A DNA stretch of 64,000 nucleotides from Pseudomonadota bacterium. GTDB taxonomy: Bacteria > Bdellovibrionota_F > JAHFAK01 > JBDREC01. The stretch lies in contig JBDREC010000004.1 of assembly GCA_043820105.1 (NCBI GenBank), forward strand, positions 5,682 through 69,681, read 5' to 3'. This document shows, piece after piece, positions 10,747 to 57,541 of this stretch. A program made the position numbers and the translations under genes. Below the pieces are notes generated by a model. It did no database searches. It was not told the DNA's origin and saw only the letters and a program-made list of their open reading frames with translations. How positions within the stretch are numbered: position 1 is the first letter of the stretch; every line of letters begins with the position of its first letter.

Positions 10747-10774
10747 CGTACAGCGTACAGTGTACAGCGTACGG
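10747..10774. repeat. Tandem heptamer array (CGTACAG)x4, degenerate, immediately 3' of the tdh stop codon
   Basis: cgtacag cgtacag tgtacag cgtacgg read directly from the sequence. Confidence 0.8.
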
Positions 10775-10799
10775 CGTGAAATTTATATGAGGTGAATTT

Positions 10800-11174
10800 G
10801 TGATTTTTGGTATTGGTGTTGATATAATTGAGGTAAGTAGGCTTGATAAAGAAGCTAAGATATCTGATAACTTCTTTAGTCGTGTTTTTACTGAAAAAGA
10901 AATTGAATATTGTGAGTCTAAGAAGTTTTCAGCTCAGCATTATGCTGGTAGATTTGCGGCTAAAGAAGCTTTTTTTAAAGCATTAGGGACAGGCTTAAGG
11001 GATGGATTGACCTGGAAAGATGTAGAGCTCACTAATGATGAACTTGGAAAACCAAGTCTATGTTTTTCAGGAAGAGCAAAAGAAATTATTAAAGAAAAAA
11101 ATATTAAAAATGCGCAAGTATCTTTGTCACATATAAAGAAGCTTGCTAAGGCATTTGTTATACTGGAGACTTAG
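10800..11174 (+). CDS. acpS: Holo-[acyl-carrier-protein] synthase (4'-phosphopantetheinyl transferase)
   Basis: MIFGIGVDIIEVSRL...FSAQHYAGRFAAKEAFFKALGTG is the canonical AcpS signature. GTG start with GAGGTGA RBS. Confidence 0.8.
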   Translation: MIFGIGVDIIEVSRLDKEAKISDNFFSRVFTEKEIEYCESKKFSAQHYAGRFAAKEAFFKALGTGLRDGLTWKDVELTNDELGKPSLCFSGRAKEIIKEKNIKNAQVSLSHIKKLAKAFVILET

Positions 11175-11285
11175 TTATAAGTTGTAAGTCGTAAGTCGTA
11201 AGTCATAAGTCGTAAGTCATAAGTCGTAAGTCGTAAGACATAAGACATTCTTACCACTTATAGCTTACCACTTACCACTTACCAC
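11175..11285. repeat. Inverted pair of heptamer arrays: (GTCGTAA/GTCATAA)x10 followed by (TTACCAC)x5
   Basis: Directly visible. Core GTAAG in arm 1 is complementary to CTTAC in arm 2, giving a periodic 5-bp-helix hairpin. Sits between the acpS stop and the RBS of the acs-like gene. Confidence 0.85.
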
Positions 11286-11304
11286 TTGCTCCAAAGGAGA
11301 CAAC

Positions 11305-13008
11305 ATGAACAATATTGGATCTTATGATGAAAAAGCTAGAGACTTTAATTGGTCAGATTCAGAAAAAGAGCTTGGTTATAAAGATGGTGATGTGATTAAT
11401 ATTGGATGGTATTGTACAGACAGAATTTGCGAAATGGGAAAAGCTGACAAGCTTGCTTTGATTTGGGAAGGAATGACTGGCGAAGAAAAAAAATTTACAT
11501 TTAATGATATTCGCATGGCCAGTAATACTATTGGAAACTACTTAAGAAACTTAGGAGTTGAATCAGGTGAAAGAGTTTGTTTATTCATGGACAAAGTTCC
11601 TGAGCTATATCTTGGCTTTTTGGGGGTTTTAAAAATAGGAGCGATTGCTCAACCTTTATTTTCAGCCTTTGGCGATGAATCACTGCATGTTAGACTTTCA
11701 AACGCTGAAACTTCTGTTGTTGTAACTCAACAAAAACATGTTAATAAGGTTAGAAAGATTCGAGATACTCTTCCATCATTAAAGCATATTATTATTGTTG
11801 ATTATAATGGAAAAAAACCTCTTCAAGAAAAAGAACATGCATTCTTTTTAGGAAATGAAACTCCAGTTGATAAATTTGATATTTTTAAAAGCAAAGCAGA
11901 AACTCCTTCTGTTTTACATTATACTTCAGGAACCACGGGTCAACCAAAGGGTGTTAAGCATGTTCATTATTCATTAATTTCTCAATATATTACAGCTAAA
12001 TGGATTCTTGATATTCAGGAAGATGATATTTATTGGTGCACAGCTGATCCTGGCTGGGTTACTGGAACTTCTTATGGAATAATTGGTGCCTGGTCAAATG
12101 GTGTTACTCAATGCGTGCTTGATAAAGGGTTTTCAGCTGAAAACTGGTATTCTTTCATGGAAAAACATAAAGTAACAAATTGGTATTCAGCTCCAACAGC
12201 CATTAGATCCCTTATGAAAGCAGGAATTGGGGCTGTAAAGAAATTTGATTTATCATCATTAAGACATCTAACATCAGTCGGTGAGCCTTTAAATGCTGAA
12301 GCTGTGGTTTGGTCAAAAGAAGCTTTTGGCAAAGCTTTTCATGATACTTACTGGCAAACAGAAACAGGTTCAATAATGGTAGCTAACTATCCTGGAATGG
12401 AAGTTAAGCCAGGCTCCATGGGAAAACCTTTTCCTGGAATAATTGGTGCGATTTTAGATGAAGAAACATATGAGCCAATTACTGAAGTAAATAAAATCGG
12501 AGCAATTGCTTTTAAACCAGGCTGGCCAGCAATGATGAGAACCTATTGGAACAATGAAGAAACATATCAAAAGAAATTTAAAAATGGTTGGTATCTAACT
12601 GGCGATAGATCTACTGTTGATAAAGATGGATACTTCTGGTTCACAGGACGCGATGATGATGTTATTAATACAGCAGGTCACTTAGTGTCGCCTTTTGAAG
12701 TTGAATCTGCCCTCTTAGAGCATGAAGCTGTAGCTGAGTCAGCAGTAGTAGCAAAACCAGATGATGTTAACATGGAAGTTGTTAAAGCCTTTGTAAGCTT
12801 AAAACCAGGCTTTGAACCAGATAAAGACTTAGAATTAAAAATCATGAATTTTATTAGAAAGAAACTATCACCTCTTGCAATGCCTCAAGAGATTGAATAT
12901 ATGGACAAGCTTCCAAAAACAAGGTCTGGTAAGATTATGAGAAGACTTTTAAAAGCACGGGAATGGGGTGAAGAAATTGGTGATACATCAACTTTAGAAG
13001 ATGATTAG
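11305..13008 (+). CDS. Acetyl-CoA synthetase family AMP-forming acyl-CoA (or acyl-ACP) ligase
   Basis: YTSGTTGQPKGV, IYWCTADPGWVTGTSY, YWQTETGS and C-terminal LPKTRSGKIMRRLLK...GDTSTLED closely track Acs-type enzymes. The protein is shorter than E. coli Acs at the N-terminus. Confidence 0.75.
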   Translation: MNNIGSYDEKARDFNWSDSEKELGYKDGDVINIGWYCTDRICEMGKADKLALIWEGMTGEEKKFTFNDIRMASNTIGNYLRNLGVESGERVCLFMDKVPELYLGFLGVLKIGAIAQPLFSAFGDESLHVRLSNAETSVVVTQQKHVNKVRKIRDTLPSLKHIIIVDYNGKKPLQEKEHAFFLGNETPVDKFDIFKSKAETPSVLHYTSGTTGQPKGVKHVHYSLISQYITAKWILDIQEDDIYWCTADPGWVTGTSYGIIGAWSNGVTQCVLDKGFSAENWYSFMEKHKVTNWYSAPTAIRSLMKAGIGAVKKFDLSSLRHLTSVGEPLNAEAVVWSKEAFGKAFHDTYWQTETGSIMVANYPGMEVKPGSMGKPFPGIIGAILDEETYEPITEVNKIGAIAFKPGWPAMMRTYWNNEETYQKKFKNGWYLTGDRSTVDKDGYFWFTGRDDDVINTAGHLVSPFEVESALLEHEAVAESAVVAKPDDVNMEVVKAFVSLKPGFEPDKDLELKIMNFIRKKLSPLAMPQEIEYMDKLPKTRSGKIMRRLLKAREWGEEIGDTSTLEDD

Positions 13009-13029
13009 AAATTAACAAAGGAGAACAAA

Positions 13030-13278
13030 ATGGATGAAATGAAAAAAGTTATATTAGACTATGTTTATGAAGAATATGTTGAAGATGAAGATGATGAAGT
13101 AACATATGATACTCCACTTATTTCAGGAGGCCTCGTTGACTCATTTTCAATGGTTTCATTAAAAAGATTTTTAGAAAATAAATATAACATCTCAATTCCA
13201 GATGAAGATGCTACCCCTGAGGCTTTTGATTCTGTTGATAAGATTTGTGTTTTAGTTAATAGATTTATTAATAAATAG
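13030..13278 (+). CDS. Acyl carrier protein-like (phosphopantetheine attachment)
   Basis: 82 aa, acidic, with GGLVDSFSMVSLKRFLE carrying the DS(L/F) Ser motif. Adjacent to an AMP-ligase, and acpS is nearby. Confidence 0.55.
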   Translation: MDEMKKVILDYVYEEYVEDEDDEVTYDTPLISGGLVDSFSMVSLKRFLENKYNISIPDEDATPEAFDSVDKICVLVNRFINK

Positions 13279-13340
13279 CTGTAAGCTGTAAGCTGTAAGC
13301 TGTAAGCTTTTCTTACCACTTACCACTTACTACTTACCAC
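13279..13340. repeat. Composite heptamer element (CTGTAAG)x4 + (TTACCAC)x4
   Basis: Directly visible after the ACP stop codon. The reverse complement of this element recurs at 28691-28754. Confidence 0.85.
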
Positions 13341-13360
13341 TTTTATCTCGGAGAGATATA

Positions 13361-14608
13361 ATGGCTTATACTGATGATATAAAAAAGGGTTACAAAGACG
13401 AACTTCAGGGCATAGCAGATGCAGGTCTTTTCAAAAGTGAACGCTTTATTCATGCAGCTCAAGATGCAGACATTGAAGTTGAATTTCCAGCTGGCGCGCC
13501 TATTAAAAAAGTTATAAATATGTGCGCGAATAACTATCTTGGTTTTTCAAGTGATCCTGAGATTGTTCAGGCTGCTCATAATGGTCTTGAAACAAGAGGT
13601 TATGGAATGAGCTCAGTTCGTTTTATTTGTGGAACTCAAGATATTCACAGAGAACTTGAACAAAAGGTTTCTGAATTTTTAGGCTGTGAAGACACAATAT
13701 TATTTCCATCCTGTATGGATGCTAATGCTGGTGTTTTTGAAGCTACTTTAGATGAACAAGATGTTATTATTTCAGATAGACTTGTGCATGCTTCTATCAT
13801 TGATGGCATAAGACTTGCCCCAGCTATGCATGATACTTTTAAACATTCCAATATGGAACATCTTGAAAGTAAATTACAACTGCATGCTGACAAAAGAAGA
13901 AAAGTGATCGTAACTGATGGTGTTTTCTCAATGGATGGTGATTGTGCTAAAATGGATGAAATCGTTGCACTTGGTGAAAAATATGGAGCTTTAGTTTTTT
14001 CTGATGAATCACATTCAACTGGTTTTATCGGCAAAACAGGAAAAGGTGTGCATGAAAAATGTGGTGTAATGGGCAAGATGGATATTATTACAACTACCTT
14101 TGGTAAAGCAATGGGCGGAGCAAGCGGCGGTTGTGTTTCAGGCAGACGTGAAATCGTTGAAATGTGTCGTCAAAAAGCAAGGCCTTATCTTTTCTCAAAT
14201 GCCATGGCTCCTGTAATTATTCAAGGTGTTTTAAAGGTTTTTGAAATTCTATCAGGTTCAACTGAAAGAAGAGATAAGCTGGAATGGAATGCAAATTATT
14301 GGAGACAAGGTCTAACGGATGCTGGCTTTGTATTAAAAGATGGAGATACTCCAATTGTTCCTGTTATGCTTTTTAATGCCAAGCTTTCTCAAGATTTCTC
14401 AATTGGTTTGTATGAAGAAGGAATTTATGCAATTGGATTTTTCTTTCCTGTTGTTCCAAAAGGACAAGCGAGAATCAGAACCCAGCTTTCAGCAGCTCAT
14501 ACAAAAGAGCATCTTGATAAAGCACTTGATGCATTTATTAAGGTGGGTAAAAAATATGAGATCCTAGGAAAAACCAAACAAGAAATCATTGAAATGTATG
14601 GAATGTAA
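13361..14608 (+). CDS. kbl: Glycine C-acetyltransferase (2-amino-3-ketobutyrate CoA ligase), alpha-oxoamine synthase family
   Basis: GLFKSERFI, SVRFICGTQDIHRELEQK, ASIIDGIRL, TDGVFSMDGD and GFFFPVVPKGQARIRTQLSAAHT are near-identical to conserved E. coli Kbl blocks. PLP-Lys region TTTFGKAMGGASGG. Confidence 0.8.
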   Translation: MAYTDDIKKGYKDELQGIADAGLFKSERFIHAAQDADIEVEFPAGAPIKKVINMCANNYLGFSSDPEIVQAAHNGLETRGYGMSSVRFICGTQDIHRELEQKVSEFLGCEDTILFPSCMDANAGVFEATLDEQDVIISDRLVHASIIDGIRLAPAMHDTFKHSNMEHLESKLQLHADKRRKVIVTDGVFSMDGDCAKMDEIVALGEKYGALVFSDESHSTGFIGKTGKGVHEKCGVMGKMDIITTTFGKAMGGASGGCVSGRREIVEMCRQKARPYLFSNAMAPVIIQGVLKVFEILSGSTERRDKLEWNANYWRQGLTDAGFVLKDGDTPIVPVMLFNAKLSQDFSIGLYEEGIYAIGFFFPVVPKGQARIRTQLSAAHTKEHLDKALDAFIKVGKKYEILGKTKQEIIEMYGM

Positions 14609-19060: not shown

Positions 19061-19080
19061 AACTTTGCAGTTTTAAAAAA

Positions 19081-19146
19081 GTATTCAGTATTTAGTATTC
19101 AGGAATTTATAAACTGACTGAATACCGAATACCAAATACTAAATAC
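19081..19146. repeat. Inverted heptamer arrays (GTATTCA)x3 ... (GAATACC/AAATACT)x4
   Basis: Directly visible between the DUF1302-like stop codon and the MMPL start codon. Confidence 0.85.
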
Positions 19147-19162
19147 CAAAATGGAGTTTTTT

Positions 19163-26224: not shown

Positions 26225-26293
26225 TTTTTGTCAAGAAAAAGAGTTTATTCTTTTATGGAAAGTTGATTAATATAGATTATTTATTATCCTAAA

Positions 26294-26330
26294 TTTTGAA
26301 TTTTGAATTTTGAATCTTGAATTTTGAATC
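26294..26330. repeat. Tandem heptamer array (TTTTGAA)x5
   Basis: Directly visible, immediately 3' of the transketolase-family stop codon. Confidence 0.85.
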
Positions 26331-26331
26331 A

Positions 26332-28671
26332 TTATTCTGGGATATTTTCTCTGATGGTATTTAATCTCTGATCTCTTTCATTAACGAATTTTTCGATTCC
26401 TTTGAGGATCCATTCTGCTGAGATGTGTGCTTCTTCGCAAACTTCTTCAATTGAACCGCCTGATCTCCATTTATTATCCCAGTCTGAAGAAACAGTATAA
26501 GCTTCAGAGATTTTATTTGAAGTCCAGTCAGTTACTATTTCACGAGATCCGTTTGTAACTACCATTGAATCTAGCCATTCTTTATTAGATACGATTTTTT
26601 CCTGGTAGTCTTTGTCTTGCATTTTGAATAGCTCGTGACTGATTGCTGCAACTATCTTAACATTTATACCTTTAGCATCAAGCTCAGGTAAAATCTTTAA
26701 AATATTAGCAGTAGTGCTTGTTCCTTGAACAAATACAACACCATGTTTTTTGCCTTCTTTATAATCTCTAATTAAATATGCACCTTTAGCTGCTTCAAAG
26801 TGGCTTGCCATTCCAAGCTTTTCTCTGTCTGGAATTTCAATTGGAGGTCTGGTTAGGTGAAGAGCAATAATTGGAACATCAGTTTTCATGGCTTCAGCTA
26901 GAACTACTGGAACTTCATTATGTTCCCATGGGAATAGATTTAAAACATGTCCCTTTGGAAATAGCTTTGAAACTGCTGGAGAGAAAACACCAAAATGTGT
27001 TCTTGAATCTTCAGCTGTTTCTGGGCCTGAATGACCTGAGATCCAAATAGTTTTTCCAACTTTAAAATCACAGTCTTGAGCAAGTTGAGAATAAAGTCTC
27101 ATCATACCATATTTTAAATAAGAAAATGATCCATAAGTTGATGTGGCTGTATAAAATCCACTAAAATCTTTATAAGGATCTAAGGCAAAGTTAACTGAAC
27201 TCATTCCAACTGCAATTCCCGCATTTGCAAATTCAGTGATTTCTTGTGGAAGTAGTGCGCCTAAGTGATTGTCATCTCTATGGTACCAACCGCAGCCTTT
27301 TTTATCTTTGAAATCTTTTGCAAATCCAGAAATGTTAGTTGAATCTGATAAATCAGCAGATGAAACAACAAATAATGGTCTTCCATAATTTTCTTTGCAG
27401 TATGTGTTTACATAAGCACCAAAATTAGCAAGTCCTGCTCTGTTTGGTGATTGTGAGCCTGGTTTTGCCCATACTTCTTCAGGATAATTTTTATAATCCC
27501 AAATATTTTCATCATTTAATGGGTTTTTATCATCTTTAACTGCCACTGTGTCAATGCATTCAGGCACTGAATCACCAATTGCAACTAGAGTATCACAAAC
27601 ATAATCAAGTGCTTCTTGATTGTTTCTTAAAACATCTAGTGCTTTGTTAAGATTGTTCCATGTTTGTTCTTTTAAAGCTTCTTTTGATTCAGGGGCGCCT
27701 TGGCCAAAGCCATCAAAACTTACTTCATATTTGTCAGCAAAGTCTTTTTTTGTTTGCCAGTAAAGGTCTGAGTTTGTGGCATGAGGAGCTCCATGGGAAG
27801 CATTGTCATACTTATAATAGCCTCTTCCTTTTTGTGTTTTCATCCAACCAATATTTGGAACCTTATCATGGTTTTCACCCCAATAAAGTTCGACCATCAT
27901 TTTTGTTAATGGTGCCCAATCAGAACCATTATCTGATTGTGTAACTCTCCATCCGTGTGATCCAAACCAATCTGTTGGTGTTCCATAAACAACATCGCTT
28001 GTTCTGTGACCATCAATTCCATAATCATTCCAGTCAATAACAAAATAAAGATTGTCAAGGCCAAGTCCCCATGCTGAGTTCATTGTTTCATGAACGCAAC
28101 CTGGAGTTAAGCCGCCTTCCCCTTCAAAAGAAATAACCTTAACACCTTTGGCTCCTGACATTTTTAAAGCTAATGCAGCTCCAGCTGAGCCGGGTGCTCC
28201 GTGGCCTGATGGACCTGTATTAAATTTTAAGAACAAGGTTTTTCCTGCCATTTCAGCGTGACCAGGTAAGCCGCCGTGATTTCTAAATTCTAAAATATCT
28301 TCAGGTAAAACAACCTTATTATCTGGAACAAAGTATTTTTTGTCCCCAGTTTGTTTATATTTTGTTCTCATTGCATCAGATAGCACTGACATAACAGCAT
28401 ATATCATTGGAACTGTATGACCGCCTGATAAAATAAATCTATCAGCAAATGTTTTGTCAGGTTTTCTTATATCCCACTTCATTGCACCACTTAATAGGGT
28501 TGCAACAAGTGCATGTACTTTTGATCTTGAGCCACCTGGGTGACCACTTTGTCTTAAGTTTAATGCCATATCAATGACCTGATCAGTACAGTCTTTGACA
28601 ATTTCCCATTTGTCGAAATGCTTTGCGCATTCTTCATATTTTTGATTAATAAAATCACTATTGCATGTCAT
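26332..28671 (-). CDS. Transketolase-family protein, long variant of 779 aa
   Basis: SGHPGGS...DRFILSGGH (TPP-binding N-terminus). GEGGLTPGCVHE...IDWNDYGIDG parallels the E. coli TktA GDGCMMEGISHE...YDDNGISIDG block. Extra C-terminal region of about 100 aa. Confidence 0.7.
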   Translation of the reverse strand: MTCNSDFINQKYEECAKHFDKWEIVKDCTDQVIDMALNLRQSGHPGGSRSKVHALVATLLSGAMKWDIRKPDKTFADRFILSGGHTVPMIYAVMSVLSDAMRTKYKQTGDKKYFVPDNKVVLPEDILEFRNHGGLPGHAEMAGKTLFLKFNTGPSGHGAPGSAGAALALKMSGAKGVKVISFEGEGGLTPGCVHETMNSAWGLGLDNLYFVIDWNDYGIDGHRTSDVVYGTPTDWFGSHGWRVTQSDNGSDWAPLTKMMVELYWGENHDKVPNIGWMKTQKGRGYYKYDNASHGAPHATNSDLYWQTKKDFADKYEVSFDGFGQGAPESKEALKEQTWNNLNKALDVLRNNQEALDYVCDTLVAIGDSVPECIDTVAVKDDKNPLNDENIWDYKNYPEEVWAKPGSQSPNRAGLANFGAYVNTYCKENYGRPLFVVSSADLSDSTNISGFAKDFKDKKGCGWYHRDDNHLGALLPQEITEFANAGIAVGMSSVNFALDPYKDFSGFYTATSTYGSFSYLKYGMMRLYSQLAQDCDFKVGKTIWISGHSGPETAEDSRTHFGVFSPAVSKLFPKGHVLNLFPWEHNEVPVVLAEAMKTDVPIIALHLTRPPIEIPDREKLGMASHFEAAKGAYLIRDYKEGKKHGVVFVQGTSTTANILKILPELDAKGINVKIVAAISHELFKMQDKDYQEKIVSNKEWLDSMVVTNGSREIVTDWTSNKISEAYTVSSDWDNKWRSGGSIEEVCEEAHISAEWILKGIEKFVNERDQRLNTIRENIPE

Positions 28672-28690
28672 GTAAATACTCCGTATTTAA

Positions 28691-28754
28691 GTGGTAAGTG
28701 GTAAGTGGTAAGTGGTAAGTGACAAAGCTTACAGCTTACAGCCTACAGCTTACG
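28691..28754. repeat. Composite heptamer element (GTGGTAA)x4 + (GCTTACA)x4, reverse complement of the element at 13279-13340
   Basis: Directly visible. Lies 20 nt upstream of the transketolase start codon, that is, in its 5'UTR. Confidence 0.85.
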
Positions 28755-28823
28755 ATTATATATTAAATAGTGAATGGCATATAGTAGAAAAATAAATAGA
28801 TTGCAAACTAAAAAAGCTTTGTG

Positions 28824-28851
28824 GTATTTAGTATTCAGTATTCAGTATTCA
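28824..28851. repeat. Tandem heptamer array (GTATTCA)x4
   Basis: Directly visible. Confidence 0.85.
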
Positions 28852-28866
28852 GGATAGGAGATCCTT

Positions 28867-28959
28867 ATGAGGCGATTTAAAAAAATCTTAATCTTAATCC
28901 CAATCTTAATCATAATCCAAATCTCTATTTTATACGGATTGCCCAAAAAAGGTAGATAA
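28867..28959 (+). CDS. 30-aa mini-ORF encoding a signal-peptide-like sequence across an AATCTTA heptamer array
   Basis: TAGGAG RBS 6 nt upstream of ATG. Translation MRRFKKILILIPILIIIQISILYGLPKKGR. The ILILIPILIII stretch is encoded by the repeat tract. Confidence 0.3.
   Translation: MRRFKKILILIPILIIIQISILYGLPKKGR
28884..28925. repeat. Tandem heptamer array (AATCTTA)x6, degenerate, lying inside the mini-ORF
   Basis: Directly visible. The same unit recurs at 57507-57541. Confidence 0.8.
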
Positions 28960-29038
28960 GGTTATTGCTTCAAGCAAAGTTGATCTAAATGGAGAAATTC
29001 CCTTTGTTTTTTTTAATGAGAGTTCTTATGGAAATATT

Positions 29039-29536
29039 TTGGCTGACTCATTTAAGCAGTGTTCTTTGTCAGATGCAGCGATTATTGTGAGTGTTGTCTT
29101 GAATTCTTCATTAAAAAAAGGTGATATCAGGATAAGGGATATTTTTAATTCTCATAGATGGGTAGCTGGTTTATATGTGCTAGAATTAAACGGTGGTAAG
29201 GTTTTAGAAATATTAAATAAATTAACAGAAGAATATCCAAAACCATCACCACTTTTTCCTCAAGTTTCAGGCATTTCATTTGAGCTAACAAGCAAGAAAG
29301 ATGCAAAAAAGATTTCAAATGTTCAAATTAATAGCCAGGCTCTTATTCTTGATAAAACATATAAAATTGTTATGGACGCAGCATTGCCATCTGTTTTAGT
29401 TGATGAGAGAATTATTGAAAAAGGTGTTGCAAAAGATACATGCAATAAAAAATATATGTGGCAAATTTTTGCAGATTATTTAAAATCACAAGGAGAAACT
29501 GCAAACTTTGAAGACAAGAGGATTCTTATAGATTAA
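29039..29536 (+). CDS. 5'-nucleotidase C-terminal-domain-like protein with no canonical start; frame open from 28916, one frame out of register with the upstream mini-ORF
   Basis: The open frame begins right after the repeat. SKVDLNGEIPFVFFNESSYGNILADSFKQ and GDIRIRDIFNSHRWVAGLYVLELNGGKVLEIL resemble the 5'-nucleotidase C domain (ETNLGNLIADAM; GDITxxDLxxVLPFxNxLxxxELTGxxL). Only a TTG at the position where the track starts the ORF. Confidence 0.45.
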   Translation: MADSFKQCSLSDAAIIVSVVLNSSLKKGDIRIRDIFNSHRWVAGLYVLELNGGKVLEILNKLTEEYPKPSPLFPQVSGISFELTSKKDAKKISNVQINSQALILDKTYKIVMDAALPSVLVDERIIEKGVAKDTCNKKYMWQIFADYLKSQGETANFEDKRILID

Positions 29537-29647: not shown

Positions 29648-30145
29648 ATGGATAAAAGAGGATTTAGTCTTGTAGAGTTGATGATAGTAGTTGCTATTAT
29701 TGGGATATTAGCTGCAATCGCAATTCCATCATTTATGAATTACATTAAAAAATCAAAACAATCCGAAATATTAACAATGCTAAATGCAATATATGCTTGC
29801 GAAGCAGACTATAATATTGAGAATCAAAAATTTCACACTACAGGTATAATACCAGCTGGTTCATATAATCCTGCTAATTTAGACGGAAATAGAAAACCTG
29901 GCTCTCAGGTAGAGTTTATGAATGATACAGATGGCTTTGCAATAATTGGTTTTGTGCCTGATCAGGATGTTTTTTCTGCTTTTATTGTCAGTTCAACTGA
30001 TGTAACGACAAGTGCTTTTATTAAAATATATTCAGATTTAGATGATGATGGTACGATTGGACTTCACAGCCAACAAATAAAAAGGGACAAGGATACAGGA
30101 AATGCTTATAAGGTTGTTGAGGCGATTCAAAGTATAGACGATTAG
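29648..30145 (+). CDS. Type IV pilin/pseudopilin-like protein
   Basis: Prepilin leader [27 protein letters not shown] (G-1, F+1, E+5). Single Cys, so no C-terminal disulfide loop. Confidence 0.75.
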
Positions 30146-30420: not shown

Positions 30421-30924
30421 ATGAAACTAAAGCGTAAAGGACTCACCTTATTAGAACTAATGATCGCAGTTGCTATAATTGGCATTATCAGTGCCATAGC
30501 ATCATCATCTTTGATGGGTTTAATCAAAAAATCAAAGAAATCTGAAATAAGCCATATGGTGAATGGTATCTATGTTTGTGAAGCAGATTATAGTATTGAT
30601 TCACAAAAATTCCATATAACATCTGTTGTGCCTGCTGGTTCATTTAATCCAGCAAACCTTGATGGAAATAGGATTCCAGGATCCCAACAAGAGTTCAAAG
30701 AAGACACAGAAGGTTTTGCAATAATAGGATTTGTTCCTGACCAGGATGTTTACTCGGGATTTAAGGTAGATGCTACAGATGTAACAAGTATGGCATATAT
30801 AAAGGTGATGCAAGATCTTGATGATGATGATACTATTGCTGTTTATTCTCAAAGAATAAAAAGAAATAAGGAAACAGGAGATGCATACAAATTTTCCGAC
30901 TTAGTCATAAGCGTTGAAGATTAA
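30421..30924 (+). CDS. Type IV pilin/pseudopilin-like protein, tandem paralog of 29648-30145
   Basis: KGLTLLELMIAVAIIGIISAIA. Shares CEADYxIxxQKFHxT, [13 protein letters not shown] and [13 protein letters not shown] with the upstream paralog. Confidence 0.75.
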   Translation: MKLKRKGLTLLELMIAVAIIGIISAIASSSLMGLIKKSKKSEISHMVNGIYVCEADYSIDSQKFHITSVVPAGSFNPANLDGNRIPGSQQEFKEDTEGFAIIGFVPDQDVYSGFKVDATDVTSMAYIKVMQDLDDDDTIAVYSQRIKRNKETGDAYKFSDLVISVED

Positions 30925-30925
30925 T

Positions 30926-30956
30926 AATTCAAAATTCAAGATTCAAAATTCAAAAT
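30926..30956. repeat. Tandem heptamer array (AATTCAA)x4
   Basis: Directly visible after the pilin stop codon. Inverted partner at 31114-31145. Confidence 0.85.
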
Positions 30957-31035
30957 TATAATATATAACCAAAATTGAACTAATTATCAGAAACTTATAA
31001 ATTATCCTAAAATATTAGTTGTTTATAAAAAATAT

Positions 31036-31113: not shown

Positions 31114-31145
31114 ATTTTGAATTTTGAATTTTGAATTTTGAATTA
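31114..31145. repeat. Tandem heptamer array (AATTTTG)x4 in the 5'UTR of the GntR gene
   Basis: Directly visible. Reverse complement of the AATTCAA/TTCAAAA family. Followed by AAGGAGGTGA RBS. Confidence 0.85.
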
Positions 31146-48441: not shown

Positions 48442-48492
48442 GGAGGTAGCCTCTTCTCCCCTCCAATTAATTATTATTTATTAATTATTGGT
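48442..48492. repeat. Intergenic element: GGAGG...CCCCTCC hairpin plus AT-rich ATTAATTATTATTTATTAATT block
   Basis: Directly visible. The same 21-mer and the same G/C hairpin type recur at 52571-52684. Confidence 0.7.
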
Positions 48493-48811
48493 TATTAAAA
48501 AAAGAATTTCCAAAAATTAATAGAAATAAACTAAAAACTAAAAAGTCAAAACATAAACAATGTTAAATATATATAATTCAAGCGATCAGGAAATCCTTCA
48601 CCCCTTGTGCCAGTGAAATAGCGCACATAAGAAAGCATTGACATCGTTAATATGCACCAAGCTTGCCCTGTGATTAAAGGCAGAAAAACCTTACATAAAG
48701 TTGAAACTCAAGCCGTCCTAAAAGTGTCGAAATTGTGAAAAAAAAGTTACGGAATAAGTTCTTGATATTATTGAAATGTGACAAGGATGTGAAAAAAATA
48801 TGAAAAAGATG

Positions 48812-48840
48812 TTGACAAAATAAGTTTCTTTGCTTATAAG
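48812..48840 (+). promoter_or_regulatory. Near-consensus sigma70 promoter driving the ORF-free segment
   Basis: TTGACA (48812-48817), 17-nt spacer, TATAAG (48835-48840). Confidence 0.5.
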
Positions 48841-48846
48841 CTATCT

Positions 48847-50016
48847 TACAAGGCAGGGAAAAATAGCCCACGGTAGAGAAAGCCAACACTGACTAATCCT
48901 AACTAGTTAAGCATTCAGCTTGCTGAGCGCTTAATAAAATGTGTCAGTACTATGCTAAGTCAAGTTCTTAAGGGAAGTCAATGCCAGCTGGTAACAGCTA
49001 GTAAATTTTCCGGAGAAAAAATGATCTTTGAGCTTGAGCATATTTGAGTAGCTAGGAATAACGAGGCTAAAAACCTCCCAAAGGATGTTAGCTGTATTAG
49101 GGTCAAACCTATCGCCGTTAACTAGTTGCATTGTTTGTAAAACTCTAAAGGCACGCAAAAGCTACAGTCTGGCAACAGGCGGTAGTTAGAAATGCCATAA
49201 GAGGAGGAAGATTTTAACCGGATCTTCTAAATAGCATTGTAGCGAAAACCTTAAAGGGGAAAAAGCTAAGAAAGCTAAAACCGCTAGAAACAGACTTTTG
49301 TTTGTCAAGGCGGGGAAGCCTCATAATTGGTAAGAGGCCCTGAGGTTCATGAAGCCTCGTGAATTAATCGAGCTTGCTTGATTTTGGAACGAGATGGATA
49401 AGAGCGTGAGGGCATGTTAATAGTGACGAGCTATTAATACTGATTATGCGGAAGTTAAAGCTTTGGAAGCTAAATCCTAAAAGTGTAGCTTGGTTGAAAT
49501 AACACCAAGACGTTTTACTGGGAAAGATTAAACTTCGAAAGGTTAATCAAAACCTATGGAAGCTACAAAAAGCAGCCTCGGATAAGCTGCTTGCACGTTA
49601 GTCCCAGTTTGACAAAAAACGCTATAAGGACGTAAAACCTCGGTGAAAGGTCAAAGAAGCCTAAAAACTTCGAGACAGGTTAGTGCGAACACTCTATAGT
49701 AGAGTCAAAGTTCATAAGAGGATAAGCAGGTGGTCAAACATCTGCAAGACGGTAAACAATTGAAAGCCTGGAAGTTGTTAAAACAACATGTAGGCCGCTA
49801 ATTAACCAGAAAATTAACTAAATTGTTTACATATAAAACTCTAAAGAACCTGATAACTGCACAAGAGGCGTTAATGTAAGACCAAAAGGGTCAAACCTTT
49901 AGGATTATTTTAACTAGCATTTTCCTGGATGATCTTTGGAGAGGAAAACTCTTTCAGGTTATTGGATCCTGCCTTATAAAAAGCCAACTAGCAAATTTTG
50001 CTAGTTGGCTTTTTTA
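48847..50016 (+). ncRNA. Candidate large (about 1.2 kb) structured non-coding RNA of unknown family
   Basis: No ORF of 60 aa or more on the + strand. GC visibly higher than flanking CDS. Recurrent GGTCAAACCT, AAACCUC and GAAGCCUC motifs and many local hairpins. Bounded by the promoter above and a strong terminator. Confidence 0.4.
49982..50016 (+). terminator. Rho-independent terminator
   Basis: agccaactagcaaa/tttgctagttggct is a perfect 13-bp stem followed by TTTTTT. Confidence 0.8.
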
Positions 50017-50224
50017 GTTTGTGCTTTGTGTGAATAGAGTAACTATAATTGTTGTTGGCACAATATTGTCCCAGTTTAAACAAAATAATAGCTTGTAAAA
50101 GTTCTGCAGTGCCTTGATATGATAGCGATAAATACTGTTGAAAAGCCATTGGCATCAAATTTGCAATTGTCTAAAAAAGTGGCTATTATAGCTTGTTTAT
50201 TTAACTTAATTTATGGAGTATATT

Positions 50225-52570: not shown

Positions 52571-52684
52571 GAGGGGCTTGTTTTCCCCCTAACATTAATT
52601 ATTATTTATTAATTGTTAATTATTAATTATTCAATGCTCTTCAAATAACCAATAATTAATAAATAATAATTAACAATTAATGTT
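52571..52684. repeat. Intergenic element: GAGGGG...CCCCT hairpin plus an approximately 95-bp AT-rich imperfect inverted repeat containing ATTAATTATTATTTATTAATT
   Basis: Directly visible. The arms aacattaattattatttattaattgttaatt and ccaataattaataaataataattaacaattaatgtt are near reverse complements. Confidence 0.7.
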
Positions 52685-55598: not shown

Positions 55599-55600
55599 AA

Positions 55601-55672
55601 GTATTCAGTATCTATTAGTCAGTATTTAGTGGTTTTTTTCTGAATACTGAATACCGAATACTAAATACCAAA
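55601..55672. repeat. Inverted heptamer arrays (GTATTCA-like)x4 ... T7 ... (TGAATAC/CGAATAC/TAAATAC)x4
   Basis: Directly visible between the BtpA stop codon and the psuK RBS. Same family as 19081-19146 and 28824-28851. Confidence 0.85.
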
Positions 55673-55694
55673 ATTCACAATAAGGAATTTTAAA

Positions 55695-56561: not shown

Positions 56562-57478
56562 ATCTAAGCGAATTCCTTTATATTAACCCTAAAATAAAAG
56601 ATGCCATTCAAAATAATAAACCTGTAGTGGCTTTGGAATCAACAATTATAGCCCATGGAATGCCGTATCCTCAAAATCTTGAAACAGCTTTAATGCTTGA
56701 ATCTATAATTAAAGACACAGGATGTGTGCCTGCAACGATTGCTATCTTAGATGGCAGGATAGTTGTAGGTCTTTCTTTAGAAGAAGTTGAGAAAATTGCT
56801 CAAGGAAAAGACATTTTAAAGGTTTCAGCTGCTGATATTTCCTATGTTTTAGGAAAGGATTTGAGCGGAGCAACAACTGCTGGAGCAACAATGAAACTTG
56901 CTTGCTTAGCAGGAATAAGGGTTTTTGCAACAGGCGGAATAGGTGGAGTTCATAGGGGTGTTGAAAATACTTTTGATATTTCATCTGATTTGAAAACCAT
57001 CTCTGAAACTCCGATTATTACAGTTTCAGCTGGTGCGAAGGCCATTTTAGATCTTCCTAAAACCTTAGAACACTTAGAGACTTTGAATGTTTTAGTCCTG
57101 GGCTATCAAACAAATGAGTTTCCTGCTTTTTATTCAAGAGAGTCTGGCTTAAAATTAAATCACAGTGTAATTAAGGCATCTGAAATCGCTTCAATTTTTT
57201 CAGCCCAAAAAGCGATTAATGAAAATAGTGGAATCTTAGTAGCTAATCCAATTCCAGAAGAATTTGAAATTAAGGCAGAGCTTATTAATTCTGTTATTGA
57301 TAAGGCTATTTTAGAGGCAAAGAATCAAGGTGTTTCAGGAAAAGAACTAACTCCATTTTTACTAAAATATATTAAAGATAAAACAAGTGGTGAATCTTTA
57401 AAAGCGAATATTGAGCTTGTTAAGAATAATGTTAAGCTTGCTTGTGAAATCGCAAAGTTGCTGGTTGCTGGTTGCTAG
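56558..57478 (+). CDS. psuG: Pseudouridine-5'-phosphate glycosidase
   Basis: VVALESTIIAHGMPYPQN...VFATGGIGGVHRG is characteristic of PsuG/YeiN (IndA family). Confidence 0.8.
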   Translation: MNLSEFLYINPKIKDAIQNNKPVVALESTIIAHGMPYPQNLETALMLESIIKDTGCVPATIAILDGRIVVGLSLEEVEKIAQGKDILKVSAADISYVLGKDLSGATTAGATMKLACLAGIRVFATGGIGGVHRGVENTFDISSDLKTISETPIITVSAGAKAILDLPKTLEHLETLNVLVLGYQTNEFPAFYSRESGLKLNHSVIKASEIASIFSAQKAINENSGILVANPIPEEFEIKAELINSVIDKAILEAKNQGVSGKELTPFLLKYIKDKTSGESLKANIELVKNNVKLACEIAKLLVAGC

Positions 57479-57487
57479 TTGCTGGTA
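57457..57487. repeat. Tandem heptamer array (GTTGCTG)x4 overlapping the psuG 3' end
   Basis: gttgctg gttgctg gttgcta gttgctg. It encodes the C-terminal LLVAGC and contains the TAG stop. Confidence 0.8.
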
Positions 57488-57506
57488 TTATATCTGTCTT
57501 CTGAGT

Positions 57507-57541
57507 TCTTAACTCTTAAATCTTAAATCCTAATCCAATCC
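57507..57541. repeat. Tandem heptamer array (ATCTTAA)x5, degenerate
   Basis: Directly visible. Overlaps the 3' end of the minus-strand gene 57530-58258. Confidence 0.75.

What the first reader, a model, noticed from the sequence alone, without database searches (positions are those of the whole stretch)
28855..29536. Candidate slipped-strand contingency locus: signal-peptide mini-ORF through an AATCTTA array, out of frame with a 5'-nucleotidase C-domain body that has no start codon
A perfect RBS (TAGGAG, 6-nt spacer) precedes ATG 28867. The 30-aa ORF reads MRRFKKILILIPILIIIQISILYGLPKKGR and stops at 28957-28959. It has a basic n-region and a hydrophobic core encoded by the (AATCTTA)n tract. 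The downstream protein-like frame is open from 28916 and has no ATG. It encodes ...KVDLNGEIPFVFFNESSYGNILADSFKQ... and GDIRIRDIFNSHRWVAGLYVLELNGGKVLEIL, the 5'-nucleotidase C-terminal domain signature. The two frames differ by +1. Loss of one A from the A6 run at 28945-28950, or a unit change in the heptamer tract that also removes the TAA at 28913-28915, would fuse signal peptide to enzyme domain. This is the classic architecture of phase-variable genes. It could also be a decaying pseudogene, since the metallophosphatase N-domain is absent.
Basis: partly seen in the sequence, partly recalled or inferred. Interest (0 to 1): 0.6.

Follow-up and report, generated by a model that had tools for sequence, protein, structure and literature searches.

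The report
Frameshift-broken secreted nucleotidase-like gene
This is one small gene for an exported, probably non-catalytic 5'-nucleotidase-like domain, split into a 30-residue signal-peptide stub and a startless body by a single extra base in an ordinary run of six A's; it is a routine broken gene (or a base-calling slip), not a repeat-driven on/off switch.

Summary
The coordinates, both reading frames, the ribosome-binding site, the stop codons and the A6 run are as described. The body is a genuine 5'-nucleotidase C-terminal domain (Pfam 57 bits; AlphaFold pLDDT 89; TM 0.83 to solved enzymes).

The "AATCTTA heptamer" is wrong. The tract has period 6 (ATC-NNN, Ile-Leu) and is imperfect, so unit changes keep the frame and cannot fuse the two ORFs. 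The only plausible lesion is one base in the A6 run. Removing one A gives a 222-aa protein: signal peptide plus a stand-alone C-domain. Intact proteins found elsewhere have the same architecture and size (216-220 aa), so the missing metallophosphatase domain is not a sign of decay.

A6 is not hypermutable. There are 198 A/T runs of 6-9 in the window's 43 intact ORFs, and a published phase-variation cut-off for poly-A/T is 10 or more. I found no frameshift-stimulating signals. No relative is close enough to test for length variation.

Most likely this is a recent real frameshift (a null allele or young pseudogene). A consensus error is the main rival.

Genuine heptamer arrays do exist, but they lie in 11-12 of the window's 35 intergenic spacers, which is a known kind of feature.

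The parts
28855..28860 (+). Shine-Dalgarno-like TAGGAG, 6 nt upstream of ATG 28867. It sits in the loop of a small AGGAT/ATCCT hairpin.
   Evidence: sequence
28867..28959 (+). 30-codon ORF encoding the N-terminal signal peptide or membrane anchor of the ancestral gene. It has a basic n-region (MRRFKK) and an 18-residue hydrophobic core, and stops at TAA 28957-28959.
28885..28926 (+). Decayed hexanucleotide repeat (ATC-NNN, 7 units) that encodes the hydrophobic core. It is frame-neutral.
   Evidence: TRF period 6/18; codon view; ATC excess, P=5e-6
28945..28950 (+). A6 run, the most likely site of the 1-nt insertion. Deleting one A fuses the two frames into a 222-codon ORF.
   Evidence: It is the only run of 5 or more bases inside the 41-nt interval (28916-28956) where a 1-nt deletion can fuse the frames. 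The confident AlphaFold structure and the family homology both begin at the two Lys codons of this run.
28916..29536 (+). Body reading frame (+1 relative to the mini-ORF), 206 codons plus stop, with no ATG/GTG/TTG before 29039.
28967..29377 (+). 5'-nucleotidase C-terminal domain (PF02872), residues 34-170 of the repaired protein. The fold is intact, but the family's conserved R..ETNLGN, GGIR, PF and GGDGY motifs are replaced.
28964..28966 (+). ATT codon used as the start in the public annotation (190-aa product MFH1726924.1 = P0001). It has no signal peptide and no well-placed SD.
28824..28852 (+). (GTATTCA) x4.1 heptamer array that abuts the SD. It is part of a window-wide set of intergenic heptamer arrays.
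28688..28753 (-). Composite (GTAAGCT)n-(CTTACCA)n heptamer hairpin just upstream of the SD of the divergent transketolase-like gene. It belongs to the neighbour, not to the broken gene.
   Evidence: fold -21.3 kcal/mol, z=-2.4

Best explanation
Positions 28867-29536 are a single gene. Its ancestral product is a 222-residue exported protein: an N-terminal signal peptide (or membrane anchor) followed directly by a stand-alone, divergent 5'-nucleotidase C-terminal domain. That domain has lost the family's conserved substrate-binding motifs, so it is probably a non-catalytic binding or structural module.

In the sequenced allele one extra A in a short homopolymer (A5 to A6, 28945-28950), just after the hydrophobic core, shifts the frame. 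Ribosomes starting at the well-placed SD and ATG make only the 30-residue signal-peptide stub and stop at 28957. The domain-coding body lies in the +1 frame with no proper start, so it is essentially untranslated.

I take the frameshift to be a real, recent, ordinary replication-slippage mutation: a null allele or young pseudogene of a dispensable gene. I do not think it is a selected switch.

Shown: the one-gene architecture, the position of the frame break, the domain identity, the frame-neutrality of the repeat, and the ordinariness of the A6 run.

Inferred: that the lesion is in the A-run, that it is real rather than a consensus error, and that it is recent.
For: - One base restores a 222-aa ORF. 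Its layout and size match intact stand-alone proteins P0148 (216 aa) and P0111 (220 aa), each with a signal peptide and a single PF02872 domain. P0111 has no metallophosphatase neighbour.
- The strong SD and ATG belong to the stub. The body has none.
- Family homology and confident predicted structure begin at the Lys-Lys encoded by the A-run: pLDDT is 55 for residues 1-10 and 93 from residue 11, and KKVDKVIA aligns with KKLEKVIA of P0006.
- The body is otherwise undamaged. It has 206 sense codons without a stop in a 32% GC genome, a complete C-domain fold (TMq 0.83), and no second lesion. That argues the break is recent.
- Real rather than artefact: the other 43 ORFs are unbroken, and every Pfam match among those scanned covers all or nearly all of the model, although those ORFs contain 198 A/T runs of 6-9 bases. 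The assembly is therefore not prone to homopolymer errors.
- Not a switch: the repeat has period 6, and A6 is below the cut-off of 10 or more.
Against: - There is only one sequence of this locus. The only hit in 5.8 billion protein clusters is the same locus, and the next relative is 32% identical. Neither the reality of the extra A nor its age can be checked.
- An undamaged body is equally what a consensus error or a functional recoding site would leave.
- The lesion could in principle lie elsewhere in the 41-nt permissive interval.
- The lesion could also be the junction of an old out-of-frame deletion of an N-terminal catalytic domain, since several of the best hits are full-length enzymes.
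Confidence: 0.55

Rival explanations
1. Consensus or assembly artefact. The organism really has A5 (or A8) and an intact 222-aa gene, and the extra A is a homopolymer miscall in the metagenome-assembled genome.
For: - The source is a MAG.
- The lesion sits in a homopolymer.
- The body shows no other damage.
- The repaired product matches a known architecture.
Against: - None of the other 198 A/T runs of 6 or more, including 67 of length 7-9 that should be more error-prone, breaks an ORF in 55 kb of coding sequence.
- Every Pfam match in the neighbouring genes scanned covers all or nearly all of the model.
- An isolated error at a run of only 6 is therefore unlikely a priori.
Confidence: 0.22
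2. True contingency locus. Reversible slipped-strand mispairing at A6 toggles export of the domain ON and OFF. Possibly it is helped by a genome-wide tendency to slippage, as the many heptamer arrays might suggest.
For: - The frame break lies in a homopolymer at the 5' end of a gene for a surface or secreted protein, which is the typical location and gene class.
- The genome shows abundant SSR arrays.
- The body is intact.
Against: - A6 is below the published cut-off for poly-A/T tracts, 10 or more (PMC6321876).
- A/T runs of 6-9 are everywhere in intact genes here: 131, 50, 14 and 3 runs of length 6, 7, 8 and 9.
- The only real repeat inside the ORF is frame-neutral.
- The distant stand-alone homologues have no tract at this position.
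- No population data exist.
Confidence: 0.07
3. Recoding. A fraction of ribosomes (+1 slip of tRNA-Lys or tRNA-Pro on CCC-AAA-AAA-G), or of RNA polymerases (one A lost on the A6 run), restores the frame, so the gene is expressed at a deliberately low level.
For: - tRNA-Lys can re-pair perfectly one base downstream within AAAAAA-G, and CCC to CCA is also possible (sequence).
- CCC is a rare Pro codon here, 58 of 544.
Against: - No slow codon follows. GGT and AGA are among the commonest Gly and Arg codons.
- There is no stop at the shift site.
- There is no upstream SD-like stimulator, and no downstream structure (28930-29010 folds no better than shuffles, z=+0.63).
- 75 in-frame AAA-AAA pairs, 28 of them followed by G, occur in ordinary genes of the window.
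- The homologues P0111 and P0148 are single ORFs.
- From my own knowledge, known transcriptional slippage sites use longer runs.
Confidence: 0.04
4. Two separate genes, as in the public annotation: a 190-aa cytoplasmic C-domain protein initiated at ATT 28964 (or at TTG 29039), preceded by an unrelated small hydrophobic peptide or upstream ORF.
For: - NCBI's pipeline called exactly this product (P0001).
- The ATT lies 5 nt after the stub's stop, so termination-reinitiation is conceivable.
- Some short homologues lack a signal peptide (P0096, P0146).
Against: - ATT is a very rare start, and no SD lies at a proper distance.
- The body frame stays open 48 nt upstream of the ATT.
- Homology and predicted order begin upstream of the ATT, at the A-run.
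- The stub is a textbook signal sequence with no mature part.
- A single base joins the two into a known architecture.
Confidence: 0.06
5. Remnant of a full-length enzyme. An out-of-frame internal deletion removed the roughly 300-codon metallophosphatase domain of an SP-N-C 5'-nucleotidase. The frame break is the deletion junction, and the locus is decaying.
For: - The best-scoring relatives are multi-domain enzymes: P0002 (Metallophos plus two C-domains) and P0006 (Metallophos plus one C-domain).
- Homology starts at the inter-domain linker.
Against: - The C-domain is no more than 32% identical to anything and has lost the conserved substrate-binding motifs, yet it keeps a 206-codon open frame and a confident complete fold. 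That indicates long evolution under selection as a stand-alone module, not drift after a deletion.
- Stand-alone homologues with a signal peptide and one C-domain, of the same length, exist.
- No N-domain remnant is present in the 195-nt spacer or elsewhere in the window.
Confidence: 0.06

Closest known systems
C-terminal (substrate-binding) domain of bacterial and eukaryotic 5'-nucleotidases: UshA, Thermus 2Z1A, CD73 (Pfam PF02872)
   Same: Sequence membership above the Pfam cut-off. phmmer hit to 2Z1A residues 330-480. The predicted fold superposes with TMq 0.74-0.84.
   Different: No metallophosphatase catalytic domain in the gene or in the window. The conserved R..ETNLGN, GGIR, PF and GGDGY positions are replaced, so nucleotidase activity is not expected.
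Stand-alone exported 5_nucleotid_C proteins, e.g. P0111 (220 aa, assembly GCA_054919995.1) and P0148 (216 aa)
   Same: A signal peptide followed by a single PF02872 domain, and the same total length as the repaired 222-aa product. The same loss of the canonical motifs.
   Different: Only 21-33% identical. They are uninterrupted ORFs with no repeat tract in the signal-peptide region. The function of this subgroup is unknown.
SSR-driven phase-variable (contingency) genes of Campylobacter, Neisseria and Haemophilus
   Same: A frame break in a homopolymer near the 5' end of a gene for an exported protein.
   Different: The tract is A6, against accepted cut-offs of 7 or more G/C or 10 or more A/T (PMC6321876). 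The in-ORF repeat has a unit of 6, which is frame-neutral, like the trinucleotide repeats that paper excludes. No length variation has been observed, and such runs are ubiquitous in intact genes here.
Intergenic heptanucleotide repeats: TAACTGA repeats upstream of start codons in Beggiatoaceae (PMC4679880); cyanobacterial and Xanthomonas heptamer SSRs (PMC4692102)
   Same: The flanking arrays (28688-28721, 28726-28753, 28824-28852) and about a dozen others in the window are short period-7 arrays confined to intergenic DNA, often ending 13-25 nt before a start codon.
   Different: There are many different units rather than one. They are frequently arranged as inverted pairs that fold into hairpins of 5-bp helices separated by 2x2 internal loops. 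They lie outside the broken ORF and do not explain the frame break.

Membership tests
5'-nucleotidase C-terminal domain (PF02872) | Profile-HMM score above the curated gathering threshold | tested here: met
   57.3 bits against 23.6, E=2.6e-15, profile positions 3-143 of 158
5'-nucleotidase C-terminal domain (PF02872) | The alpha/beta fold of the C-domain | tested here: met
   AlphaFold pLDDT 89.1, pTM 0.88. Foldseek E=3e-18, TMq 0.83 to 2Z1A. UshA and CD73 also match.
Catalytic 5'-nucleotidase / UDP-sugar hydrolase (UshA/CD73 type) | N-terminal dimetal metallophosphatase domain in the same protein | tested here: not met
   Only PF02872 was found. NCBIfam UshA scores 48 bits against a cut-off of 600. 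tblastn shows no other copy or remnant in the window. The upstream spacer is 195 nt of repeats.
Catalytic 5'-nucleotidase / UDP-sugar hydrolase (UshA/CD73 type) | Conserved C-domain substrate-binding motifs (R..ETNLGN, GGIR, PF, GGDGY in the family consensus). The roles of these residues are from my own knowledge of UshA. | tested here: not met
   The window protein has F.NESSYGNIL, SVVLNSS, RW and SVLVDER at these positions
Stand-alone exported 5_nucleotid_C proteins | One ORF with an N-terminal signal peptide plus a single PF02872 domain, about 216-222 aa | tested here: inconclusive
   Met only after deleting one A. As sequenced, the two parts are in different frames. Comparators are P0111 and P0148.
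SSR-mediated phase-variable (contingency) locus | Repeat tract in the ORF whose unit length is not a multiple of 3 | tested here: not met
   The AATCTTA tract has period 6 or 18 with 79-87% matches
SSR-mediated phase-variable (contingency) locus | Homopolymer long enough to be hypermutable (poly-A/T of 10 or more in PhasomeIt) | tested here: not met
   The run is A6. The cut-off is from PMC6321876. The window's 43 intact ORFs hold 198 A/T runs of 6-9.
SSR-mediated phase-variable (contingency) locus | Tract length varies between cells, strains or samples, with ON and OFF alleles both seen | not testable with these tools
   No second copy of the locus was found in 5.8 billion protein clusters, 1.84 billion representatives, GTDB genomes or JGI metagenomes
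Programmed +1 frameshift or transcriptional slippage | Slippery site followed by a slow or stop codon and flanked by a stimulator (SD-like element or RNA structure) | tested here: not met
   The following codons, GGT and AGA, are common. There is no significant structure (z=+0.63). The motif is frequent in normal genes.
Programmed +1 frameshift or transcriptional slippage | The frameshift is conserved in homologues | tested here: inconclusive
   The distant stand-alone homologues are single ORFs. No orthologues are available.

The most novel reading that the evidence does not exclude
The break is genuine and functional. In this orphan, repeat-rich lineage, export of a non-catalytic nucleotidase-like module would be set by slippage on the short CCC-AAA-AAA-G site, either reversibly in DNA or at low level by RNA polymerase or the ribosome. 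The hexamer-built signal peptide and the heptamer array that abuts the SD would add further length-variable control. That would make it a contingency or recoding site with a far shorter tract than any accepted one.
Probability: 0.1. Interest if true: 0.5.

Novelty: already known. Interest (0 to 1): 0.15.

Why it matters
It matters little for biology and more for annotation.

- The public record calls a 190-aa protein from an ATT start. It should instead carry a frameshifted or pseudogene flag, or a corrected 222-aa exported product.
- The case is a useful caution. An eye-catching repeat in a signal-peptide region can be frame-neutral, and a six-base A-run in a 32% GC genome is background, not a switch.
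- If read-level data showed a mixed A5/A6 population, the locus would become a modestly interesting example of variable expression of a stand-alone 5'-nucleotidase-like domain, whose function is unknown.
- The more interesting material lies around the gene: the pervasive intergenic heptamer arrays and hairpins, and a candidate 1.2-1.4 kb non-coding RNA elsewhere in the window.

Tried and rejected
1. Heptamer reading of the in-ORF tract. Rejected by TRF and the codon view.
2. Looking for orthologues or other alleles to see tract variation. All of the following gave nothing usable:
   - word-indexed search of 5.8 billion clusters with the repaired protein, which returned only the locus itself;
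   - exhaustive phmmer against 1.84 billion representatives, where the next hit is 32% identical;
   - a synteny search through the neighbouring transketolase-like gene in GTDB genomes, where the best hit is 72% identical in an unrelated, non-syntenic MAG and none of the 15 loci encodes a relative;
   - a JGI metagenome scan with the body protein, with no relative found;
   - a JGI scan with (CTTACCA)3 to fish out related genomes, which gave more than 120 stretches but no close relative;
   - exact-product look-ups for P0001 and P0151, neither on record.
3. Taxonomic placement through a conserved neighbour. Its best relatives are no more than 58% identical and scattered over several phyla, so this is an orphan lineage.
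4. Programmed frameshift signals: RNA folding around the site, codon rarity and motif frequency. Nothing was found.
5. A general homopolymer-error problem in the assembly. Rejected, because the other genes are intact.
6. A promoter-spacing phase-variation model for the flanking heptamer arrays. The only sigma-70-like match has its -35 hexamer inside the array and its -10 outside, so changing the copy number would not change the spacer. Promoter-like hits are also no more frequent than in shuffles.
7. Rfam and tRNA scans of the window. No matches.

Full report
**What is in the sequence**

- TAGGAG (28855-28860) lies 6 nt before ATG 28867.
- The ORF reads MRRFKKILILIPILIIIQISILYGLPKKGR and stops at TAA 28957-28959.
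- An A6 run occupies 28945-28950.
- The +1 frame is closed by TAA at 28913-28915, and is then open from 28916 to the stop at 29534-29536.
- That frame has no ATG, GTG or TTG before the TTG at 29039.

**The repeat was misread**

TRF reports period 6 (5.7-6.7 copies, 79-82% matches) and period 18, not period 7. In codons the tract is ATC-TTA, ATC-TTA, ATC-CCA, ATC-TTA, ATC-ATA, ATC-CAA, ATC-TCT.

It is a real, decayed tandem repeat. ATC accounts for only 10.9% of Ile codons in the window's genes, yet it supplies 7 of the 9 Ile codons here, at strict 6-nt spacing (P=5e-6). A unit of 6 preserves the frame, however. Gaining or losing units would only lengthen or shorten the hydrophobic core, and can never join the two frames.

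**What the gene is**

Deleting one A from the A6 run produces a continuous 222-codon ORF.
- Pfam places residues 34-170 in 5_nucleotid_C: PF02872, 57.3 bits against a cut-off of 23.6.
- NCBIfam sees only partial, sub-threshold matches to the C-terminal parts of UshA-type enzymes.
- The nearest solved protein by sequence is Thermus 5'-nucleotidase 2Z1A, residues 330-480.
- An AlphaFold model of the +1-frame product is confident, with pLDDT 89.1 and pTM 0.88. Order begins at residue 11 or so, which is the Lys-Lys encoded by the A-run.
- The model superposes on the C-domains of 2Z1A, E. coli UshA and human CD73, with TMq up to 0.84.
- The family's conserved positions (R..ETNLGN, GGIR, PF, GGDGY in the alignment consensus) are replaced in this protein. 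No metallophosphatase domain exists in the gene or anywhere in the window. Enzymatic 5'-nucleotidase activity is therefore not expected.

**The missing N-domain is not decay**

An exhaustive search of 1.84 billion representative proteins found 641 relatives, all 32% identical or less. Most are full-length enzymes. The set also includes intact short proteins with a signal peptide followed by a single PF02872 domain: P0148 (216 aa) and P0111 (220 aa). P0111 sits between prfB-like and M28-peptidase genes with no metallophosphatase neighbour.

The repaired 222-aa product has the same layout and length as these proteins, and shares their loss of the canonical motifs. Other top hits match through an extra, second C-domain copy; P0002, for example, has Metallophos plus two 5_nucleotid_C domains. 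So the ancestral gene was a stand-alone exported C-domain protein, and the 30-aa ORF is its signal peptide or membrane anchor.

**Is the A-run a switch?**

I found no evidence that it is.
- The window is 32% GC. Its 43 intact ORFs contain 131, 50, 14 and 3 A/T runs of length 6, 7, 8 and 9.
- A6 is far below the poly-A/T cut-off of 10 or more that was derived from experimentally phase-variable tracts. The same paper excludes frame-neutral repeat units (PMC6321876).
- The stand-alone homologues have neither a tract nor a frame break in their signal-peptide regions.
- For programmed recoding, the codons after the run (GGT, AGA) are among the commonest for Gly and Arg.
- No stop or SD-like stimulator flanks the site, and the downstream RNA folds no better than shuffled sequence (z=+0.63).
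- In-frame AAA-AAA pairs occur 75 times in ordinary genes of the window.

**Real mutation or artefact?**

The public annotation of this MAG calls a 190-aa protein from the ATT at 28964 (P0001 = MFH1726924.1). That drops the signal peptide and starts inside the region of homology.

Every other ORF of 100 aa or more in the window is unbroken, and every Pfam match among those scanned covers all or nearly all of the model. This holds despite the 198 homopolymer runs those ORFs contain, 67 of them longer than this one. The assembly is therefore not prone to homopolymer errors, and an isolated miscall at a run of six is less likely than a real mutation in a dispensable gene.

The body has no second lesion, which means the break is recent, or else it is an error. 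I put a real frameshift at about 0.55-0.6 and an artefact at about 0.2. Smaller shares go to phase variation, recoding, the two-gene annotation, and an out-of-frame deletion of a former N-domain.

No comparative test is possible.
- The locus is unique in the protein collections.
- The synteny and metagenome searches found no relative.
- Even a conserved neighbouring enzyme has no relative above 58% identity.

**Surroundings**

Genuine heptamer arrays exist, but outside the ORF.
- Three lie in the 195-nt divergent spacer: TAAGTGG x4.9, AGCTTAC x4.0 and GTATTCA x4.1.
- About a dozen more lie in 11-12 of the window's 35 intergenic regions.
- In a scan of periods 4-12, five clear arrays were found at period 7, all intergenic, against one at period 6 and none at any other period.
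- Many are inverted pairs that fold into hairpins of 5-bp helices separated by 2x2 internal loops (z from -2.4 to -8.1).
- A (GTAAGNN)n-(CTTACCA)n composite ends 16-18 nt before the start codons of three different genes.

Intergenic heptamer over-representation, and heptamer repeats just upstream of start codons, are already described in Xanthomonas, Nostoc, other cyanobacteria and Beggiatoaceae (PMC4692102, PMC4679880). These arrays do not account for the frame break.

**Verdict**

This is an ordinary frameshift in a short homopolymer, breaking a small gene for an exported, divergent, stand-alone 5'-nucleotidase-C-like domain.

Noticed in passing
window 10747-10777, 11173-11287, 13277-13342, 19121-19150, 26292-26329, 28688-28753, 28824-28852, 30926-30957, 31114-31144, 48466-48498, 52594-52681, 55640-55668, 57457-57533: Short tandem arrays of period 7 (4-11 copies, many different units) fill 11-12 of the 35 intergenic spacers. 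In a scan of periods 4-12, five clear arrays were found at period 7, all intergenic, against one at period 6 and none at any other period. It is the same kind of feature as the heptamer SSRs of Nostoc, Xanthomonas and Beggiatoaceae, but here with many units in a 32% GC orphan lineage.
   Followed up: partly
window 11175-11304 (+), 13270-13360 (+), 28672-28760 (-): The same composite element, (GTAAG-NN)n then (CTTAC-CA)n, lies upstream of three unrelated genes: AMP-binding enzyme, aminotransferase and transketolase-like. It ends 16-18 nt before the ATG. It folds into a long hairpin of 5-bp helices separated by 2x2 internal loops (-21 to -45 kcal/mol, z -2.4 to -8.1). It may be a 5'-UTR or inter-cistronic RNA element whose arms can grow by slippage while staying complementary.
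   Followed up: partly
window 19075-19150 and 55599-55680; half-element at 28824-28852: A second hairpin family: (AGTATTC)n, a loop, then (GAATACY)n, just upstream of two genes (z -5.7 and -4.7). Upstream of the broken gene only the left arm is present, abutting the SD.
   Followed up: partly
window 30926-30957 and 31114-31144; 26292-26329: (AATTCAA)n starts immediately after the stop codon of two genes, the pilin-like gene and the transketolase-like gene. At 30926 and 31114 the array and its exact reverse complement, (TTGAATT)n, bracket a 157-nt spacer that holds a sigma-70-like promoter in front of the GntR-family gene.
   Followed up: no
window 28672-28690 (-), 13343-13358 (+), 28851-28866 (+): The Shine-Dalgarno GGAG of several genes sits in the loop, or partly in the stem, of a 5-7 bp hairpin placed directly before the ATG and directly after the heptamer arrays.
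   Followed up: no
window about 48600-50020 (+): About 1.2-1.4 kb with no ORF longer than 71 aa in any frame, inside a window that is 87% coding. GC is 0.39-0.43 against an average of 0.32, and the + strand is purine-rich. There is a TTGACA-17-TATAAG promoter-like site near 48812-48840 and a strong intrinsic terminator at 49976-50016. The motif RAAACCT (AAACCT core) occurs 7 times against 0.8 expected. No Rfam family matches. It is a candidate large non-coding RNA.
   Followed up: partly
window 28964-29536 (+): The public annotation (MFH1726924.1) starts this gene at an ATT codon, giving a 190-aa protein without a signal peptide. That is most likely a by-product of the unrecognised frameshift.
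   Followed up: yes
window 29648-30145 and 30421-30924 (+): Two tandem paralogous genes for type IV pilin-like proteins (N_methyl motif, 165 and 167 aa) lie immediately downstream of the broken gene.
   Followed up: no
window 26332-28671 (-): The 779-aa transketolase-like protein has its closest relatives (54-72% identity) in MAGs labelled Deferribacteres, Chloroflexota, KSB1, Planctomycetota and others, with no shared synteny. It is a widely scattered family, and it offers no taxonomic anchor for this genome.
   Followed up: partly
window 10800-14608 (+), small ORF about 13030-13277: An apparent operon: phosphopantetheinyl transferase, AMP-binding enzyme, a small unlisted carrier-protein-like ORF (motif ...GGLVDSFSMVSL...), and a class I/II aminotransferase. 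The genes are separated by the heptamer hairpins.
   Followed up: no
loci L019-L098 (JGI metagenome contigs): Exact (CTTACCA)3 occurs in more than 120 metagenome contigs of varied GC content. None of them is a close relative of this genome, so this heptamer unit is not lineage-specific.
   Followed up: partly
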